Source: a virus (taxonomy: Duplodnaviria; Caudoviricetes). From it: 64,000 bases of DNA. Location of the stretch: the IMG/VR virus record IMGVR_UViG_3300009155_000035, one strand, 5' to 3'. The notes under the pieces are model-generated. The model was not told the origin of the DNA. It did not search any database and was given only the letters and a program-made list of their open reading frames with translations. Below, piece after piece: positions 41,826 to 58,814 of this stretch (the first letter of the stretch is position 1; every line of letters starts with the position of its first letter). A program made the position numbers and the translations under genes.

Positions 41826-43337
41826 ATGATCTTGACTATACTAATGTTTGTGGTGGCACTATGTCTAAGCGCAGTGGCCGCTTTTTATTCCATTGTGGGC
41901 TTGACCGCAATCTTTGCCGCCGCTGTCATGCCCATTGTTCTCATGGGCAGTATCCTTGAAGTAGCCAAACTCACAGTCACAGTGTGGTTACACGAGCACT
42001 GGGATCGAGCTCGCTGGTTAATGAAGATTTATCTGAGCACAGCAGTGGTAGTGCTGATGGTAATCACCAGCATGGGCATCTTTGGCTTCTTAAGCAAAGC
42101 TCACAGCGATCAAAGCATGGTGTCGGGAGATGTGCAAGCAAAAATTGCAGTTTACGATGAGAAAATTAAAACATCACGAGAGAACATAGATGCAAACCGC
42201 AAAGCACTTAAACAAATGGATGAGGCAGTGGACCAAGTCATGGCAAGAAGCACTTCAGAAACGGGTGCAGATAAAGCCGTGGCTCTCCGTAGGACGCAAC
42301 AAAAGGAACGTCAGCGTCTCCTTGCTGAAATTGAAGCCGAACAGAAAAGAGTTAGCGTACTTGCTGAAGAGCGAGCGCCGATTGCCGCCGAGGTTAGAAA
42401 AGTAGAAGCCGAAGTAGGACCAATAAAATATATCGCCGCATTAATTTACGGTGATAACACTGATACTAACATGCTTGAAGCCGCGGTTCGTTGGGTCATT
42501 ATATTATTGGTCATTGTGTTTGACCCTTTGGCTGTGATGATGTTGTTGGCCGCAACTGAAAGTCGTAAATGGTTGCGTCAAGATCAAACAAAACCTAAAT
42601 ATGAACAAGATGATGGCCCGTTGACTCAAGAGCAAGTTGAACAAATAAAAGAATCCACTAAAGAAGATTTGCCCATTGGTGAACTAGTAATCAAGGATGA
42701 ACTATTTCCATCAGACCCATCACCCCCGGGATGGATGTACAACACTACCACAACAACATACCCATCCACTGAAGAAGAAGTTGAAGAATTAAAAACCGAA
42801 TTTGATCGTAGCAAACATGCATACCTTGATCAACAATTTCAACCCTTTGAAAACTTACAGCCAATGGCACATCGTCCTGAATCAGAAAATGAATCAGATA
42901 CTGTAACAGACGATGAACATGATTTAGAAGATAATGACGCAGTCAAGCAAGCCAAGTCACAGTGGAAGATAGATAATCCGGGTGAAACTTTAAAAGAACA
43001 GCGTCGATTATTTGAGCGTGGAATCATTGATCGACTGCCTTGGGAAGACTACTTGCCAAACCCAGCAGTTGGTAATGTGCCGTTTGGTGAGAAATTCCCA
43101 ACTGCGCCTGCACGTGGAGATATGTTTACACACGTTGGTTATGTACCTTCTAAGTTGTACAAATTCAATGGTGAAAAGTGGATTGAAATTATCAAAGACA
43201 CTACAGATCAATATACATACAATCAGTCTTATATTGATTATTTGATCAATGCTGTTAGCAGTGGCCATTATGATGCAGACCTTTTAACCGAGGGCGAACA
43301 AGCCCAAATTGAATCTCGTTTACAACAGGACAATTAA
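41826..43337 (+). CDS. Multi-pass membrane protein with coiled coil and acidic C-terminal region
   Basis: Three N-terminal TM segments, long coiled coil, TM ending FDPLAV; TAAATA at 41815. Confidence 0.65.
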   Translation: MILTILMFVVALCLSAVAAFYSIVGLTAIFAAAVMPIVLMGSILEVAKLTVTVWLHEHWDRARWLMKIYLSTAVVVLMVITSMGIFGFLSKAHSDQSMVSGDVQAKIAVYDEKIKTSRENIDANRKALKQMDEAVDQVMARSTSETGADKAVALRRTQQKERQRLLAEIEAEQKRVSVLAEERAPIAAEVRKVEAEVGPIKYIAALIYGDNTDTNMLEAAVRWVIILLVIVFDPLAVMMLLAATESRKWLRQDQTKPKYEQDDGPLTQEQVEQIKESTKEDLPIGELVIKDELFPSDPSPPGWMYNTTTTTYPSTEEEVEELKTEFDRSKHAYLDQQFQPFENLQPMAHRPESENESDTVTDDEHDLEDNDAVKQAKSQWKIDNPGETLKEQRRLFERGIIDRLPWEDYLPNPAVGNVPFGEKFPTAPARGDMFTHVGYVPSKLYKFNGEKWIEIIKDTTDQYTYNQSYIDYLINAVSSGHYDADLLTEGEQAQIESRLQQDN

Positions 43338-44524
43338 TGATATCTCCCATTGATATTTGCAGTTTTTGCGGCAAACACAAGGACAGTGTACAAAAATTAA
43401 TAGTCAGTGACACCGTGGCCATTTGCAATGAATGTGTTGACTTGTGCCGGGACCTTCTCAAAGATATTGTACCCACAGAAGAAGTTGAATCTGCCATTGA
43501 TCGTTCAGATCCCAGGATACTAAAAAAATATCTAGATGAATATGTTATTGGGCAAGACTCGGCCAAGGTTGTTCTTGCAGTAGCAGTCATTAATCATTAC
43601 AAGCGACTACAACGCAAAGAAACAGATCCCGAAGTTACAAAAGCCAATATTCTCATGCTTGGCCCCACTGGTTCGGGCAAAACATTGTTGGCACGTACAG
43701 TGGCCAAATATCTTGATGTACCTTTTGTTATTGCCGACGCCACAAGTATTACTGAAGCAGGCTACGTGGGCGATGACGTTGAAATGCTTATTGCTCGTTT
43801 GTATGCGGCATCGGGTAACAGTGTAGAAAAAACACAACGTGGAATTGTGTTTGTTGATGAAATTGATAAAATTGCTCGCAAAGGCGAAAGCGCAAGTATT
43901 ACCCGTGATGTGTCGGGTGAAGGCGTGCAACAAGCATTGCTCAAGCTAGTTGAAGGTACTGTTTGCCGTATTCCGGCAACAGGCAACCGTAAGCATCCCA
44001 ATAGTGACATGATTGAAATTGACACAGCTAATATTTTGTTCATTGCCGGCGGTGCATTTGTTGGGCTAGATTCAGTGATTCGCAGTCGAGTACATGGATC
44101 ATCTATTGGGTTTAGTAGTCTGGTAACTAAAAATATCGAAGTTAACCTTGCCGACGTTAGCCCCGACGACTTGGTTAAATTTGGCATGATCCCTGAGTTT
44201 GTAGGACGTTTTCCGGTTGTGGTAAGTCTCAATGAGCTTGATCGTGCTGACTTGAATCGAATACTAGTAGAGGTAAAGAACAATTATATTGAGCAATATC
44301 GATGGTTATTTCAGCAAGACAACGTGGACTTTGAAATTACAGAAGATGCACGTTTTGCCTTGGTTGATCGAGCTATGACCACTGGCACTGGAGCTCGAGC
44401 ATTGCATAGTGAATTGGAGAGAGTTCTATTACCGCACATGTTTGATCTAGCACGTTATCGCAATGATGGTATCAAGACCCTGGTCATTGATCAGCAGTTG
44501 GTAAATAATCCTAAAGCACTTTAA
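43337..44524 (+). CDS. clpX: ATP-dependent Clp protease ATPase subunit ClpX
   Basis: CSFCGK..CNEC Zn domain, GPTGSGKT, TEAGYVGDDVE, DEIDK, RDVSGEGVQQALLK, IGF loop, GARAL. Confidence 0.95.
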   Translation: MISPIDICSFCGKHKDSVQKLIVSDTVAICNECVDLCRDLLKDIVPTEEVESAIDRSDPRILKKYLDEYVIGQDSAKVVLAVAVINHYKRLQRKETDPEVTKANILMLGPTGSGKTLLARTVAKYLDVPFVIADATSITEAGYVGDDVEMLIARLYAASGNSVEKTQRGIVFVDEIDKIARKGESASITRDVSGEGVQQALLKLVEGTVCRIPATGNRKHPNSDMIEIDTANILFIAGGAFVGLDSVIRSRVHGSSIGFSSLVTKNIEVNLADVSPDDLVKFGMIPEFVGRFPVVVSLNELDRADLNRILVEVKNNYIEQYRWLFQQDNVDFEITEDARFALVDRAMTTGTGARALHSELERVLLPHMFDLARYRNDGIKTLVIDQQLVNNPKAL

Positions 44525-44538
44525 CGAAAGGATATATC

Positions 44539-44760
44539 TTGAAATTACATGGTAGAGCTGTAATAGTTTCAGACGGTAATGTAGAAAAAGCACTGCGCAA
44601 GTTTAAAAAGAAGATTGCAACTTCTGGGTTGTTGCAAGATCTAAGGGACAAAGAATTTTATGTAAAACCCACGACACGCCGTAAAACACAAAAAAGTCTT
44701 GCTAAAAAACGTTGGGAACGCTATGTCAACGGCCAACAACTCCCGCCAAAATTGTTTTAA
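44539..44760 (+). CDS. rpsU: Ribosomal protein bS21
   Basis: NVEKALRKFKKK...EFYVKPTTRRK. Confidence 0.88.
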   Translation: MKLHGRAVIVSDGNVEKALRKFKKKIATSGLLQDLRDKEFYVKPTTRRKTQKSLAKKRWERYVNGQQLPPKLF

Positions 44761-45014
44761 TGTATATTGAGTTTGAATTGCCCAACAGCAATGTGTCAAC
44801 TTACGTAGCAGACCAACAATTATCTCGGGCACTAGTTGAGTGGTCAGAAAAATACAATATTCCTTACACTACCAAATTGGTCAAACTCAAAAAAAGAGTA
44901 ACATTTAACGAAGATCGTTACTATGAGTTTTTTATACTAACTTGGGTACCAAAAACAAAACATAGTTTTTGGCTAAACTACCGAGTGATACGTGACCTAA
45001 ATAACAAACTTTAA
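44760..45014 (+). CDS. Hypothetical protein
   Basis: Likely start ATG 44760 overlapping the rpsU stop. Confidence 0.55.
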   Translation: MYIEFELPNSNVSTYVADQQLSRALVEWSEKYNIPYTTKLVKLKKRVTFNEDRYYEFFILTWVPKTKHSFWLNYRVIRDLNNKL

Positions 45015-45042
45015 CATAGTTTTCGCGTATAATAAATAACAA

Positions 45043-45104
45043 TGTAGCGCCGATGGTCGGGCTACACTTATAGTCAACTTGCTTATTAAAGGAGAAATGA
45101 CATG
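45043..45104 (+). promoter_or_regulatory. Structured 5'UTR, ROSE-like RNA thermometer candidate
   Basis: 5' hairpin tgtagc-g-ccga-tgg-tcgg-gctaca; then CTTGCTT pairs with AAGGAG leaving a bulged G; TAAATA at 45033. Confidence 0.55.
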
Positions 45105-45548
45105 ACTAAAATCACATCTTTTGATCTAACCCCCTTCTACCGTACATCAATTGGCGTAGACCGCTTGTTTGATCGTATTATCAACCAAATTGATAATACG
45201 GCTACAGCAGGCACTAACTATCCCCCATACAATATTGTAAAAACTGGTGAGCATACCTTTGAACTACAATTAGCATTGGCTGGGTTTACACAAGGCGAAG
45301 TTGAAATCACTGTCAAAGATGGTGTAATTTCAATCACGGGCGAGAAGAAAACTTCAAGTCTGCCCGAAGGACATGAGTACTACTACCAGGGTATCAGTGC
45401 TCGTAAGTTCTTCCGTAGTTGGCCTTTGGGTGATTACGTGGAAGTTGTTGACGCTTTGATGCGTGATGGTATTTTAACTGTTCGTCTTGAACAACGAGTA
45501 CCCGATGCCATGAAACCGAAAACAATTGAGATCGCATATCAAAACTAA
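45102..45548 (+). CDS. hsp20: Small heat-shock protein Hsp20 (IbpA-like)
   Basis: NYPPYNI, LALAGF, YYYQGISARKF, DGILTV, KPKTIEI. Confidence 0.95.
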   Translation: MTKITSFDLTPFYRTSIGVDRLFDRIINQIDNTATAGTNYPPYNIVKTGEHTFELQLALAGFTQGEVEITVKDGVISITGEKKTSSLPEGHEYYYQGISARKFFRSWPLGDYVEVVDALMRDGILTVRLEQRVPDAMKPKTIEIAYQN

Positions 45549-45566
45549 ACTTTAACGTAAATACAC

Positions 45567-45586
45567 GGGGGCTTCGGCCCCCATTT
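45567..45586 (+). terminator. GC hairpin with C(UUCG)G loop (terminator or 5' stabiliser)
   Basis: gggggc-ttcg-gccccc-attt; short T tail; TAAATA at 45558 just upstream. Confidence 0.55.
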
Positions 45587-45599
45587 AAAAGGATTCGAA

Positions 45600-45914
45600 A
45601 TGTCGCAAGCTGAACCAAAAACACGCACACGACTTAGCCCAAATGTTGATATCAAAGAACCACCGTTGTATCGTGTGATTTATATAAATGACAACAAAAC
45701 CACTGTGGATTTTGTAATTGGAAGTCTGATAGAGTTTTTTGATTATAACGAAAACACTGCTGAACAAATTACTATAAACATTCATGAAGCAGGATCGGCT
45801 ATTGTTGCAGTTCTTCCTTATGAAATTGCTGAACAAAAAGGTATAGAAGTAACTGTGAGTGCTCGTGGTCGAGGATACCCGCTACAGATCAAGCTGGAAC
45901 CCGATACAGCTTAA
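45600..45914 (+). CDS. clpS: N-end-rule adaptor ClpS
   Basis: PPLYRVIYINDNKTTVDFVI, IHEAG, EIAEQK, YPLQIKLE. Confidence 0.9.
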   Translation: MSQAEPKTRTRLSPNVDIKEPPLYRVIYINDNKTTVDFVIGSLIEFFDYNENTAEQITINIHEAGSAIVAVLPYEIAEQKGIEVTVSARGRGYPLQIKLEPDTA

Positions 45915-57714: not shown

Positions 57715-58416
57715 ATGAGTGAAATTGTTTACACACTTGTAGTGACACATATTACTATACTGTGTGTGACACTATTCTTGCACCGTGGTCAAGCACATAG
57801 AGCAGTGACCTTCCACCCGGCAATAGAGCATTTTATGCGTTTCTGGTTATGGATGACAACCGGACAAATTACCAAGCAGTGGGTCGCTGTGCATCGCAAG
57901 CATCATAGATTCACTGAACAACCGGGCGACCCGCACAGCCCGCACGTATTTGGATTTTGGAGAGTGCTGTTCAAGGGTGCTTTCTTGTATCATTCGGCAA
58001 CCAAAGATTCTAAAATGGTCGCACAGTACGGGTCGGGTACTCCGGATGATTGGATGGAACGTAATGTCTACACTCCACATAGTCGACTGGGAATTATTCT
58101 GTTATTGTTGATAAATTTACTTTGTTTTTCCTGGTGGGGGTTATTGATATGGGGTATGCAAATGATTTGGATACCATTCTGGGCCGCTGGTGTTGTCAAC
58201 GGTGTTGGTCATTGGTTGGGTTATAGAAACGGCGAAACCCGAGATCACAGTACTAACTTCAGTCCTTGGGGTATTATTATAGGTGGTGAGGAATTACACA
58301 ACAATCATCACTTGGATCCTGCCAGTGCTAAATTAAGCCGCAAGTGGTGGGAATTTGATATTGGGTGGACATGGATTTGTCTACTAGAACGATTTGAACT
58401 AGCCACAGTTCGGTAA
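57715..58416 (+). CDS. Acyl-lipid/acyl-CoA (delta-9-type) fatty acid desaturase
   Basis: His boxes HRGQAH, HRKHH and HNNHH; TM segments; GEELH. Confidence 0.9.
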   Translation: MSEIVYTLVVTHITILCVTLFLHRGQAHRAVTFHPAIEHFMRFWLWMTTGQITKQWVAVHRKHHRFTEQPGDPHSPHVFGFWRVLFKGAFLYHSATKDSKMVAQYGSGTPDDWMERNVYTPHSRLGIILLLLINLLCFSWWGLLIWGMQMIWIPFWAAGVVNGVGHWLGYRNGETRDHSTNFSPWGIIIGGEELHNNHHLDPASAKLSRKWWEFDIGWTWICLLERFELATVR

Positions 58417-58490
58417 AAATTAGTGCCCGTTTACTAATAAAAATTGTGATTTATATTGCAATGCAACATAAATAAGTGTACAATAGAAAT

Positions 58491-58547
58491 ACAAGATGCC
58501 TGTATTGGGTCTTGTTCGTAAACTTGCTTAATAAGGAGAAAACTATG
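58491..58547 (+). promoter_or_regulatory. Second ROSE-like structured leader
   Basis: acaagat-g-cc-tgtatt-gg-gtcttgt hairpin, then AACTTGCTTA-ATAAGGAGAA. Confidence 0.5.
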
Positions 58548-58814
58548 TTTACAGCCGACACACTTATCGATACCGTACAAACCGGTAAAAAAACTTTGGT
58601 GAACACTTTTATCACCAACGAAACAGCCAAAGACGCAATGATCAAATTCATTGACGCTCAGTCAGACTACACCAAAAAGGCCGCCAAAGTTAGCATGGAC
58701 ACATTTACTACACTATCTAGTGAAATGGTCAAAGCCAGTCAAAACGCCATGAAATTTGATTACGTCAAATTTGGTGAAGGCATTATGAAGGCTTACACCG
58801 CCAAAGCCAATTAA
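58545..58814 (+). CDS. Small all-helical amphipathic protein (phasin-like, tentative)
   Basis: 89 aa from ATG 58545 with AAGGAG RBS; Ala/Thr/Lys-rich amphipathic helices. Confidence 0.4.
   Translation: MFTADTLIDTVQTGKKTLVNTFITNETAKDAMIKFIDAQSDYTKKAAKVSMDTFTTLSSEMVKASQNAMKFDYVKFGEGIMKAYTAKAN

What the first reader, a model, noticed from the sequence alone, without database searches (positions are those of the whole stretch)
45033..45104. ROSE-like RNA thermometer in the phage hsp20 leader
Seen: after TAAATA, a 5' hairpin (45043-45066) and then CTTGCTT (45078-84), which pairs with the SD AAGGAG (45089-94) leaving G45081 bulged; gtca/tgac extends the stem up to the AUG. Established: ROSE elements upstream of bacterial small heat-shock genes carry U(U/C)GCU opposite the SD with a bulged G. 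Inference: temperature-gated translation of a viral chaperone.
Basis: partly seen in the sequence, partly recalled or inferred. Interest (0 to 1): 0.7.

Follow-up and report, generated by a model that had tools for sequence, protein, structure and literature searches.

The report
ROSE-like RNA leader on phage hsp20
A giant T4-like lake phage hides the ribosome-binding site of its own small heat-shock chaperone gene in the kind of two-hairpin RNA leader that bacteria use as a heat sensor, and its relatives put the same leader on four chaperone-type genes, but the response to temperature is untested.

Summary
A promoter-like TATAATAAATA is followed by a 10-bp 5' hairpin (45043-45066). CUUGCUU (45078-84) then lies opposite the SD AAGGAG (45089-94), with G45081 unpaired. 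Rfam ROSE_3 is the only credible family hit (28.8 bits, below its cut-off of 43).

Comparative data make the element real. All 45 related viral hsp20 loci carry it, and hairpin I covaries. CUUGC is invariant although the proteins fall to 44% identity. The same leader precedes a second gene in this window (58491-58544, an 89-aa protein). In relatives it precedes phage dnaK and groES-groEL, giving at least 128 of 158 distinct leaders. Rare variants change both the anti-SD and the SD together and keep the bulge.

Two details need correcting. The gtca/tgac extension is present in about a third of hsp20 leaders. A helix over the start codon is better conserved. Nearest-neighbour folding is ambiguous.

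The most likely function is SD occlusion that opens on warming. Repression by the IbpA-type protein itself may add to this, because the arginine needed for self-repression is conserved.

I found no paper describing this. Earlier notes of this scan report the same leader on other phage genomes.

The parts
45028..45038 (+). Promoter-like motif TATAATAAATA (TATAAT 45028-33 overlapping ATAAATA 45032-38), 4 nt before hairpin I
   Evidence: Sequence. ATAAATA or TATAAATA lies 0-8 nt before the first hairpin in most hsp20, dnaK and groES leaders. Complete relatives encode a T4 Gp23 capsid protein, so a T4-type late promoter is plausible. The transcription start has not been mapped.
45043..45066 (+). 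Hairpin I: 10 bp, 3-nt loop, bulged G45049; inner GCC...GGG signature
   Evidence: Predicted in every fold, -12.3 kcal/mol. 9 of 10 pairs change on both sides among hsp20 leaders. All 10 do so among 114 leaders the model was not trained on, with 91-92% of cells paired.
Evidence: The outer helix over the AUG is found by independent folding in most leaders and is compensated in L027 (GGUCA:UGACC) and L025 (UGUCA:UGACA).
45078..45084 (+). Anti-SD CUUGCUU containing the ROSE motif UUGCU; G45081 unpaired
   Evidence: CTTGC is invariant in 31 distinct hsp20 leaders. The CUUGCUU/AAGGAG pair occurs in 87 of 158 distinct leaders of four gene families, CUCGCUU in 18 and CUUACUU in 12. Compensated variants are UUCGCUU/AAGGAA, UUUGUCU/GGAAAA and UUCGUCU/GGAGAA, and GUCGCUU/AAGGAC in cyanophage S-CAM4.
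45089..45094 (+). Shine-Dalgarno AAGGAG, 7 nt before the AUG
   Evidence: Its predicted unpaired probability is 0.12 at 10 C and 0.35 at 45 C when the UTR plus AUG is folded. The medians for 23 SD-bearing genes of the window (the hsp20 gene itself among them) are 0.43 and 0.62.
45098..45108 (+). 3' arms of the two alternative lower stems: tgac 45098-101 (reader) and UGACUA 45103-08 (includes UG of the AUG at 45102-04)
45102..45548 (+). hsp20 gene, IbpA-family small heat-shock protein, 148 aa
   Evidence: Pfam HSP20, 59 bits. NCBIfam IbpA, 105 bits, below the equivalog cut-off of 212. It keeps the equivalents of E. coli IbpA Y34, R93 and R97.
45567..45582 (+). GC-rich hairpin GGGGGC-UUCG-GCCCCC after the stop codon, terminator-like with a weak U tract
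   Evidence: Sequence; the consensus scan did not call it. A lake metatranscriptome contig identical to 45070-45590 ends here; this is a weak hint only.
58491..58547 (+). Second copy of the leader: hairpin I 58491-58515 (bulged G58498), CUUGCUU 58523-29, AAGGAG 58533-38, AUG 58545, before an 89-aa ORF (58545-58814)
   Evidence: Covariance model R1, built only from hsp20 leaders, scores 30.5 bits, E 0.0012. The same leader precedes at least 48 of 62 distinct homologues of this gene. A sigma70-type TTGCAA-17-TACAAT lies at 58456-58484, read.

Best explanation
The 87-nt gap between the upstream ORF and hsp20 holds a promoter and a leader of about 60 nt of the short, two-hairpin ROSE-like type.

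Transcription probably starts about 45040, from a T4-late-type ATAAATA or an overlapping TATAAT. That places the stable hairpin I at the very 5' end of the mRNA; whether it protects the transcript or helps it fold, as has been suggested for bacterial ROSE hairpin I, is not known (inferred).

In hairpin II the invariant CUUGCUU pairs with the SD AAGGAG. The helix is deliberately imperfect: six pairs, one of them a U.G wobble, with G45081 unpaired. A lower stem closes it and covers or abuts the AUG.

While this labile helix is closed, 30S subunits cannot bind. Warming opens it and the IbpA-type chaperone is translated (inferred by analogy with validated ibpA thermometers).

Its predicted stability at about 20 C equals that of the E. 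coli ibpA hairpin at about 25-30 C, which would suit a cool lake host.

The same leader on the window's 89-aa gene, and on dnaK and groES-groEL of relatives, makes it a post-transcriptional switch shared by the phage's chaperone genes. It works without the host heat-shock sigma factor.

Shown: the element, its conservation, covariation of hairpin I, co-variation of anti-SD with SD, and its spread over four gene families.

Inferred: the transcription start, SD occlusion in vivo, and the temperature response.
For: 1. Anatomy matches the coordinates given.

2. ROSE_3 gives a full-length sub-threshold hit that ends on the AUG (28.8 bits). There are 11 further such hits at 25.7-36.2 bits, each ending at a start codon or just upstream of the hsp20 gene that follows dnaK. 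They cover hsp20, p90, groES and dnaK leaders, including cultured Methylophilales phage Melnitz.

3. The definition of short ROSE-like elements is two hairpins, U(U/C)GCU imperfectly paired with the SD, a UTR of 61-62 nt and a temperature-insensitive hairpin I (PMC3669281). Both the U and the C forms of the motif occur here.

4. Conservation: 45 of 45 hsp20 loci carry the leader although the proteins fall to 44% identity, and CTTGC is invariant.

5. Covariation on 114 leaders not used to train the model: score 0.398, against 0.171 +/- 0.006 for shuffles (0 of 500 as high) and at most 0.10 for slid partners. The core helix is 89.6% paired, with C-G changed to U-A in 4 leaders and U.G changed to C-G in 30.

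6. Register-shifted anti-SD/SD pairs keep a bulged G, and S-CAM4 has G-C at the closing pair.

7. Folding the UTR plus AUG gives median SD-unpaired probabilities of 0.03-0.12 at 10 C, rising to 0.28-0.46 at 45 C, in the four gene families. SD-bearing genes of the window give 0.43 and 0.62.

8. Deleting G45081 in silico stabilises hairpin II from -2.7 to -6.5 kcal/mol. The hairpin scores -6.0 at 20 C; the E. coli ibpA hairpin scores -5.6 at 30 C.

9. The closest bacterial IbpA genes have UUGCU opposite the SD behind sigma32-type promoters; the phage copies have ATAAATA instead.

10. In complete 316-345 kb relatives the model finds only 1-3 copies per genome, so this is not a general expression cassette.
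Against: - No Rfam ROSE family reaches its gathering score, here or in 20 related loci.
- With coding sequence included, the MFE of this particular leader leaves the SD in an 8-nt loop, and the predicted SD accessibility falls with temperature (0.87 at 5 C to 0.52 at 50 C). Only the AUG opens.
- The ROSE core alone is worth about -0.1 kcal/mol at 37 C.
- RNAalifold predicts hairpin I only, not hairpin II.
- Twelve dnaK leaders have an A in place of the bulged G.
- The SD and anti-SD are mostly invariant, so most of the support for the core helix is conservation rather than covariation.
- Lake phages may rarely meet a heat shock, so temperature may not be the natural signal.
Confidence: 0.6

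Rival explanations
1. The leader is mainly an operator for the sHSP itself. As in E. coli, the IbpA-type protein (phage or host) binds the structured leader and represses translation until aggregating proteins titrate it away. The switch would then sense proteotoxic load late in infection rather than temperature, and would coordinate hsp20, dnaK, groES and the 89-aa gene. This can coexist with thermosensing.
For: - E. coli, Cedecea and Vibrio IbpA repress their own translation through the ibpA 5' UTR. This needs R93 (irreplaceable), an aromatic residue at Y34, and basic residues at R97 and K98. IbpB lacks these basic residues (R93, R97 and K98 are not conserved in it) but keeps an aromatic residue (F32) at the Y34 position (PMC10474464).
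- All phage Hsp20s aligned keep the Y34, R93 and R97 equivalents, while E. coli IbpB in the same alignment lacks R93 and R97.
- One leader type on several chaperone genes resembles IbpA control of ibpA and ibpB and of sigma32 translation (title of PMC10410725, listed).
- Hairpin I keeps sequence features beyond pairing: a bulged purine, then GCC...GGG. This would suit protein recognition.
- hsp20 RNA is present in a lake metatranscriptome at ambient conditions (weak).
Against: - The K98 equivalent is S or T in every phage protein, and K98A abolished repression in E. coli.
- The RNA determinants of IbpA binding are not defined, so no sequence test is possible.
- No binding evidence exists for any phage sHSP.
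Confidence: 0.2
2. The leader is a temperature-independent expression module. The 5' hairpin stabilises a late mRNA, and the weak SD hairpin merely sets a fixed, moderate translation rate. The cassette spread among genes by recombination.
For: - Hairpin II is very weak in nearest-neighbour terms.
- RNAalifold does not predict it.
- The module occurs on four unrelated gene families and behind two promoter types, ATAAATA and TATAAT/TACAAT, as expected of a portable cassette.
Against: - Only 1-3 copies occur per complete 316-345 kb genome, and they sit on chaperone genes plus one small protein, not on abundant structural genes.
- The exact ROSE motif, the bulge and both the U and C forms are kept, and the anti-SD changes together with the SD. 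A fixed attenuator would not need the destabilising bulge.
Confidence: 0.15
3. The leader is a passive relic of a host ibpA gene captured together with its leader, or a chance resemblance, with no present function.
For: - The gene is IbpA-like.
- The closest bacterial homologues carry ROSE-type leaders.
Against: - The motif is invariant while the proteins diverge to 44% identity.
- Hairpin I shows compensatory changes.
- The host sigma32 promoter has been replaced.
- The leader has spread to three further gene families.
Confidence: 0.03

Closest known systems
Short two-hairpin ROSE-like RNA thermometers of Pseudomonas ibpA (Krajewski et al. 2013, PMC3669281); Rfam ROSE_3, RF02523
   Same: - A 5' UTR of about 60 nt, a GC-rich stable hairpin I, and hairpin II with U(U/C)GCU imperfectly paired to the SD, in front of an IbpA-type sHSP gene.
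- ROSE_3 aligns end to end.
- The inner GCCGA...UCGGG of hairpin I matches the ROSE_3 consensus.
- A bacterial sub-threshold ROSE_3 leader (37.8 bits) shows the same layout before an ORF whose N-terminus resembles IbpA; that ORF is interrupted by stops in the reading made here.
   Different: - It scores below the gathering score: 28.8 against 43.
- It has a phage promoter (ATAAATA/TATAAT) instead of sigma32.
- The G-C clamps flanking the core, described for Pseudomonas, are replaced by C-G on one side only.
- The hairpin is predicted to be weaker.
- In many hsp20 leaders the AUG is drawn into a lower stem, whereas it is unpaired in Pseudomonas.
- It is used on dnaK, groES and an 89-aa gene as well.
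- That ROSE_3 was built from the Pseudomonas leaders is my recollection. I did not verify it: 0 of 61 genomes sampled from the order of a MAG labelled Pseudomonadales (L047) reached the cut-off.
E. coli ibpA thermometer and IbpA self-repression through its 5' UTR (PMC10474464; bioRxiv 10.1101/2020.04.20.050740)
   Same: - The core geometry is the same: CUCGCU opposite AGGAG with a bulged G in E. coli, and CU(U/C)GCU here.
- The protein keeps the Y34, R93 and R97 equivalents.
   Different: - E. coli has a longer multi-hairpin UTR and a sigma32 promoter.
- The K98 equivalent is not basic in the phage proteins.
- No binding data exist for phage proteins.
RNA thermometers already reported in phages: lambda cIII, SPbeta blyA fourU, a sigma70-gene fourU in a gut phage (PMC11182007, PMC10586365)
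   Same: They are cis-acting 5' UTR structures proposed or shown to gate translation of a phage gene by temperature.
   Different: - Those are not ROSE-type and each concerns one gene.
- The 2024 paper counts only three phage cases.
- This one is ROSE-like, lies on chaperone genes and is conserved across hundreds of T4-like phage contigs.
- I found no paper combining cyanophage, hsp20 and thermometer (0 hits) and none describing a ROSE-like element in a phage.

Membership tests
ROSE-like RNA thermometers | Lies in the 5' UTR of a small heat-shock (IbpA/Hsp20) gene | tested here: met
   The leader at 45041-45101 directly precedes a Pfam HSP20 / NCBIfam IbpA-like ORF.
ROSE-like RNA thermometers | [quoted passage not shown] | tested here: inconclusive
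   Hairpin I is robust and covaries. Hairpin II is the MFE when the UTR plus AUG is folded, but an alternative with the SD in the loop wins when coding sequence is added. RNAalifold does not predict it.
ROSE-like RNA thermometers | Conserved U(U/C)GCU opposite the SD | tested here: met
   UUGCU lies at 45079-83 opposite AGGA at 45090-93. It is invariant in hsp20 leaders. UCGCU forms occur in p90 and dnaK leaders.
ROSE-like RNA thermometers | Bulged G within the anti-SD | tested here: met
   G45081 has no partner in the six-pair register. The bulge is kept in register-shifted variants. Exception: 12 dnaK leaders have A there.
ROSE-like RNA thermometers | Scores above the Rfam gathering threshold of a ROSE model (RF00435, RF01832, RF02523) | tested here: not met
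   ROSE_3 scores 28.8 bits against a cut-off of 43. There was no hit at gathering in the window or in 20 related loci. Relatives reach 25.7-36.2 bits. The cut-off is strict: 0 of 61 sampled bacterial genomes reached it.
ROSE-like RNA thermometers | Translation repressed at low temperature and released on upshift by melting of the SD hairpin | not testable with these tools
   Only nearest-neighbour modelling was possible. It gives a flat profile even for the validated E. coli ibpA leader.
IbpA-type self-repressing sHSP (Cheng, Miwa, Taguchi 2023) | Arginine equivalent to E. coli R93, plus an aromatic residue at Y34 | tested here: met
   The alignment with E. coli IbpA and IbpB taken from NC_000913.3 shows both residues present in all six phage proteins aligned. 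R93 is absent from IbpB.
IbpA-type self-repressing sHSP (Cheng, Miwa, Taguchi 2023) | Basic residues at positions 97 and 98 | tested here: inconclusive
   The R97 equivalent is kept. The K98 equivalent is S or T in the phage proteins.
IbpA-type self-repressing sHSP (Cheng, Miwa, Taguchi 2023) | The protein binds its own 5' UTR and lowers translation | not testable with these tools
   No RNA-protein binding tool was available.

The most novel reading that the evidence does not exclude
T4-like phages of lakes and oceans run a heat-shock or proteotoxic-stress regulon of their own that is purely post-transcriptional. One ROSE-like leader serves as the common operator on hsp20, dnaK, groES-groEL and a small helical protein. 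It is read both by temperature and by the phage's IbpA-type protein acting as an aggregation sensor. Chaperone supply would then track the folding load of virion assembly without the host sigma32, which the phage's own transcription programme bypasses.
Probability: 0.25. Interest if true: 0.8.

Novelty: new variant of a known kind. Interest (0 to 1): 0.6.

Why it matters
ROSE-like thermometers are known as bacterial devices on small heat-shock genes behind sigma32 promoters. Here the same device sits behind phage promoters and is conserved across T4-like phages. These include the uncultured freshwater giants searched here, the cultured Methylophilales phage Melnitz (isolated at the BATS station off Bermuda) and a cyanophage. 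It has also been copied onto dnaK, groES-groEL and a small protein of unknown function.

If it responds to temperature or to protein aggregation, abundant environmental viruses adjust their own chaperone supply after transcription. That bears on how infection yield depends on water temperature.

It also offers naturally low-temperature-tuned thermosensor parts. Cultured phage-host pairs are available in which it can be tested directly.

Tried and rejected
- Rfam at gathering thresholds gave nothing, on the whole window or on 20 related loci.
- ROSE_3 was searched in the genomes of the closest bacterial IbpA homologues and in 61 genomes of one order. None reached the cut-off, so I could not establish which bacteria ROSE_3 represents or name a donor.
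- Model R1 found no match at E<=1 in the 10 bacterial loci searched (L046-L053, L063, L064), and nothing better than 10.1 bits (E 1.3), away from the ibpA leader, in the E. coli locus.
- RNAalifold gave only hairpin I on the model-fitted alignment, and no structure on my motif-anchored alignment of hairpin II.
- The MAFFT alignment A1 misaligns stems of unequal length, so its pair counts understate pairing.
- My 'Tm' estimate is invalid and is not used. It counted only the fully open chain as unfolded.
- TATAAATA and ATAAATA are not enriched in the window (3 against 3.0 expected, and 10 against 14 expected). The promoter assignment therefore rests on position and on relatives.
- The sigma70/terminator scan found no promoter or terminator at the leader.
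- A distant DNA search against cultured phages matched only clpX.
- My free search for any 6-pair, one-bulge partner of the SD is not significant in itself in AT-rich leaders. I use only the motif classes found at the homologous position.
RNA contigs start at 45070, where DNA contigs of the same habitat also break, so they say nothing about the transcription start.
- Complex prediction, structure prediction and the large protein searches were not used. No claim here needs them.

Full report
**What is there**

The window belongs to a 92.7-kb IMG/VR virus record that CheckV rates 27% complete. Complete relatives of 316-345 kb encode a T4-type Gp23 capsid protein (333 bits). The source habitat is fresh water.

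The finding lies in a + strand row of proteostasis and translation genes: ClpX (43337-44524), ribosomal protein S21 (44539-44760), a small ORF ending at 45014, Hsp20 (45102-45548) and ClpS (45600-45914).
- TATAAT/ATAAATA at 45028-38.
- A 10-bp hairpin at 45043-66 with G45049 bulged.
- CUUGCUU at 45078-84.
- AAGGAG at 45089-94, 7 nt before the AUG.
- gtca at 45073-76 and tgac at 45098-101.

The six-pair register C78-G94, U79-A93, U80.G92, C82-G91, U83-A90, U84-A89 leaves G45081 unpaired. This is the geometry of UUGCU opposite AGGA seen in the E. coli ibpA leader, which has CUCGCU opposite AGGAG.

**Is it more than chance?**

- The leader folds better than its shuffles (z -3.09).
- Rfam ROSE_3 (RF02523) aligns over all 69 model positions to 45041-45107, with its AUG on the phage AUG. 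The score is 28.8 bits, E 3.8e-4 for the 351 nt searched, below the gathering score of 43. Nothing passes at gathering.
- The inner part of hairpin I (GCCGA...UCGGG) matches the ROSE_3 consensus letter for letter.

The decisive evidence is comparative. A scan of IMG/VR with the Hsp20 protein returned 45 loci at 44-82% identity (one of them a 23-residue partial match). Every one has hairpin I, CUUGCUU, a variable loop and AAGGAG, and most have TATAAATA a few nt before hairpin I. In 31 distinct leaders the invariant columns are CTTGC, one G of the SD, and ATGAC. Hairpin I covaries: 9 of 10 pairs change on both sides, and 92% of cells are paired.

**The element is not confined to hsp20**

A covariance model built only from hsp20 leaders (R1) found further copies:
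- A second copy in this window at 58480-58553 (30.5 bits), in front of an 89-aa ORF ('p90', 58545-58814). That ORF has no Pfam or NCBIfam family. The Atlas shows viral hypothetical proteins and only a faint phasin lead.
- Copies in front of a phage dnaK (L002 and L027).
- In the 99%-complete 345-kb relative G006, copies in front of groES-groEL and the p90 homologue.

Complete genomes hold only 1-3 copies.

I then scanned IMG/VR with p90, GroES and DnaK and read the upstream regions. This gave 158 distinct leaders:

| Anti-SD / SD | Distinct leaders | Note |
|---|---|---|
| CUUGCUU / AAGGAG | 87 | majority form |
| CUCGCUU | 18 | the C form of the ROSE motif |
| CUUACUU | 12 | dnaK; bulged A |
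| UUCGCUU / AAGGAA | 3 | both arms changed |
| UUUGUCU / GGAAAA | 4 | both arms changed, register shifted |
| UUCGUCU / GGAGAA | 1 | both arms changed |

In the last three classes both arms change while complementarity and the bulged G are kept.

R1 hit 115 places in 100 of these loci. All lie at the start of the query gene or just upstream of the hsp20 gene that follows dnaK. On that alignment, none of whose sequences went into the model:
- All 10 pairs of hairpin I change on both sides.
- The core helix is 89.6% paired, with C-G to U-A in 4 leaders and U.G to C-G in 30.
- The covariation score is 0.398, against 0.171 +/- 0.006 for shuffles and at most 0.10 for slid partners.

That alignment is fitted to the model, which favours the structure. 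The slid-partner control is the fairer comparison.

ROSE_3 is again the only recurring Rfam hit on these leaders: 11 hits at 25.7-36.2 bits.

Cultured phages carry the element too. Methylophilales phage Melnitz (family Kyanoviridae) has ATAAATA, hairpin I and CUUGCUU-AACU-AAGGAG (R1 43.4 bits, ROSE_3 34.1 bits). Only CDS features are annotated there. Cyanophage S-CAM4 has GUCGCUU opposite AAGGAC, so its closing pair is G-C instead of C-G.

**What needs correcting**

The gtca/tgac extension is specific to leaders that carry UGAC just before the AUG, about 11 of 31. Independent folds of most hsp20 leaders instead pair (U)AGUCA with UGACU(A) across the start codon. This helix is compensated in L027 (GGUCA:UGACC) and L025 (UGUCA:UGACA). 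It is absent from one hsp20 subgroup and from the other gene families (59.6% paired).

For this window the two registers compete:

| Structure at 37 C | Energy (kcal/mol) |
|---|---|
| MFE with coding sequence (SD in an 8-nt loop) | -18.9 |
| ROSE core plus outer helix | -16.2 |

The core helix alone is marginal: -0.1 kcal/mol at 37 C and -2.8 at 15 C. RNAalifold does not predict hairpin II.

Nearest-neighbour models do not score the non-canonical contacts described for ROSE. They also give a flat temperature profile for the validated E. coli ibpA leader. I therefore treat them as uninformative rather than contrary.

Taken at face value they still point the expected way:
- Median SD-unpaired probability in the four gene families is 0.03-0.12 at 10 C and 0.28-0.46 at 45 C. 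For 23 SD-bearing genes of the window (the hsp20 gene among them) it is 0.43 and 0.62.
- Deleting G45081 stabilises hairpin II by 3.8 kcal/mol.
- The hairpin at 20 C (-6.0) is as stable as the E. coli ibpA hairpin at 25-30 C.

**How it most likely works**

The closest bacterial IbpA genes (Alteromonadaceae, Pseudomonadales, Oceanospirillum and Marinobacter, 38-47% identity) have UUGCU opposite the SD behind CTTGAA...CCC-type sigma32 promoters, as does E. coli. The phage keeps the RNA part and replaces the promoter.

My best reading (0.6) is a ROSE-like switch. The transcript starts at the base of hairpin I. Hairpin II occludes the SD, and in many relatives the AUG, in the cold. Warming releases it.

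The main rival, or complement (0.2), is IbpA-type autoregulation. E. coli IbpA represses its own translation through its 5' UTR, which needs R93, an aromatic Y34, and basic R97 and K98 (PMC10474464). The phage proteins keep the first three but have S or T at the K98 position. A shared leader on several chaperone genes would fit such a trans-acting sensor.

A fixed attenuator or stabiliser cassette (0.15) is disfavoured. Copies per genome are few, they sit on chaperone genes, and the destabilising bulge is kept. A functionless relic (0.03) is contradicted by the conservation.

A lake metatranscriptome holds a contig identical to 45070-45590, the hsp20 gene up to the GC hairpin after its stop. 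No contig covers the 670 nt upstream. That is compatible with an abundant monocistronic mRNA at ambient temperature. Contigs prove neither transcript ends nor transcription.

**Novelty**

The papers I could search name lambda cIII, SPbeta blyA and a gut-phage sigma70 gene as the known phage thermometers. The latter two are of the fourU type, and the class of cIII is not stated in the passages read.
- No paper combines cyanophage, hsp20 and thermometer.
- No paper found with 'ROSE-like' plus 'bacteriophage', or with 'RNA thermometer' plus 'jumbo phage', describes this element by title or abstract.
- The freshwater large-phage paper mentions HSP20 only as a gene.

Earlier notes of this scan report the same leader on hsp20, dnaK and groES of other phage genomes, and on p90 of this genome. 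I reached the same points independently before reading them.

I file it as a new variant of a known kind. It works like, and is probably homologous to, short ROSE-like elements. It fails the Rfam cut-off, sits behind phage promoters, and has been extended to genes that are not small heat-shock genes.

Noticed in passing
window 58456-58814: A second ROSE-like leader precedes an 89-aa protein with no Pfam or NCBIfam family (the Atlas gives viral hypotheticals and a faint phasin lead). Its promoter looks sigma70-type (TTGCAA-17-TACAAT) with ATAAATA in the spacer. A fatty-acid desaturase gene (57715-58416) lies just upstream.
   Followed up: partly
window 1243, 23631, 53953, 63018 (+) and 471, 63013 (-): ATAAATA lies only 4-9 nt before an ATG, with no visible SD, at six of the ten sites in the window. 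These may be leaderless or nearly leaderless late mRNAs. Whether these ATGs are the true gene starts was not checked.
   Followed up: no
L006:802-990: In one relative the ROSE-like leader is followed by an 8-codon mini-ORF, and only about 80 nt later by groES-groEL with its own SD. It could be a leader peptide or a decayed copy.
   Followed up: no
dnaK loci L185, L187, L188, L192-L194, L202, L203, L205, L214, L216, L225, L243, L262 (upstream of position 601): A subgroup of dnaK leaders has CUUACUU or CUCACUU, with the bulged G replaced by A. Many also have an extra GGGCA...GCCC hairpin between hairpin I and the SD hairpin, giving a three-hairpin form.
   Followed up: partly
window 43337-45914: ClpX, ribosomal protein S21, Hsp20 and ClpS form a contiguous phage-encoded proteostasis and translation island. 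In relative L002 a dnaK gene sits between S21 and hsp20, and in L006 groES-groEL does.
   Followed up: partly
window 45043-45104: There is a weak match to the Rfam motif freshwater-2 (RF02980; 14.5 bits, E 9): a hairpin followed by AAAGGAGAAAA-N-AUG. It may only reflect a shared ribosome-binding style among freshwater phage leaders.
   Followed up: no
window 45097-45105: ATGACATGA is a two-codon upstream mini-ORF whose stop overlaps the hsp20 start codon. It arises from the duplicated ATGAC that also creates the two alternative lower stems.
   Followed up: no
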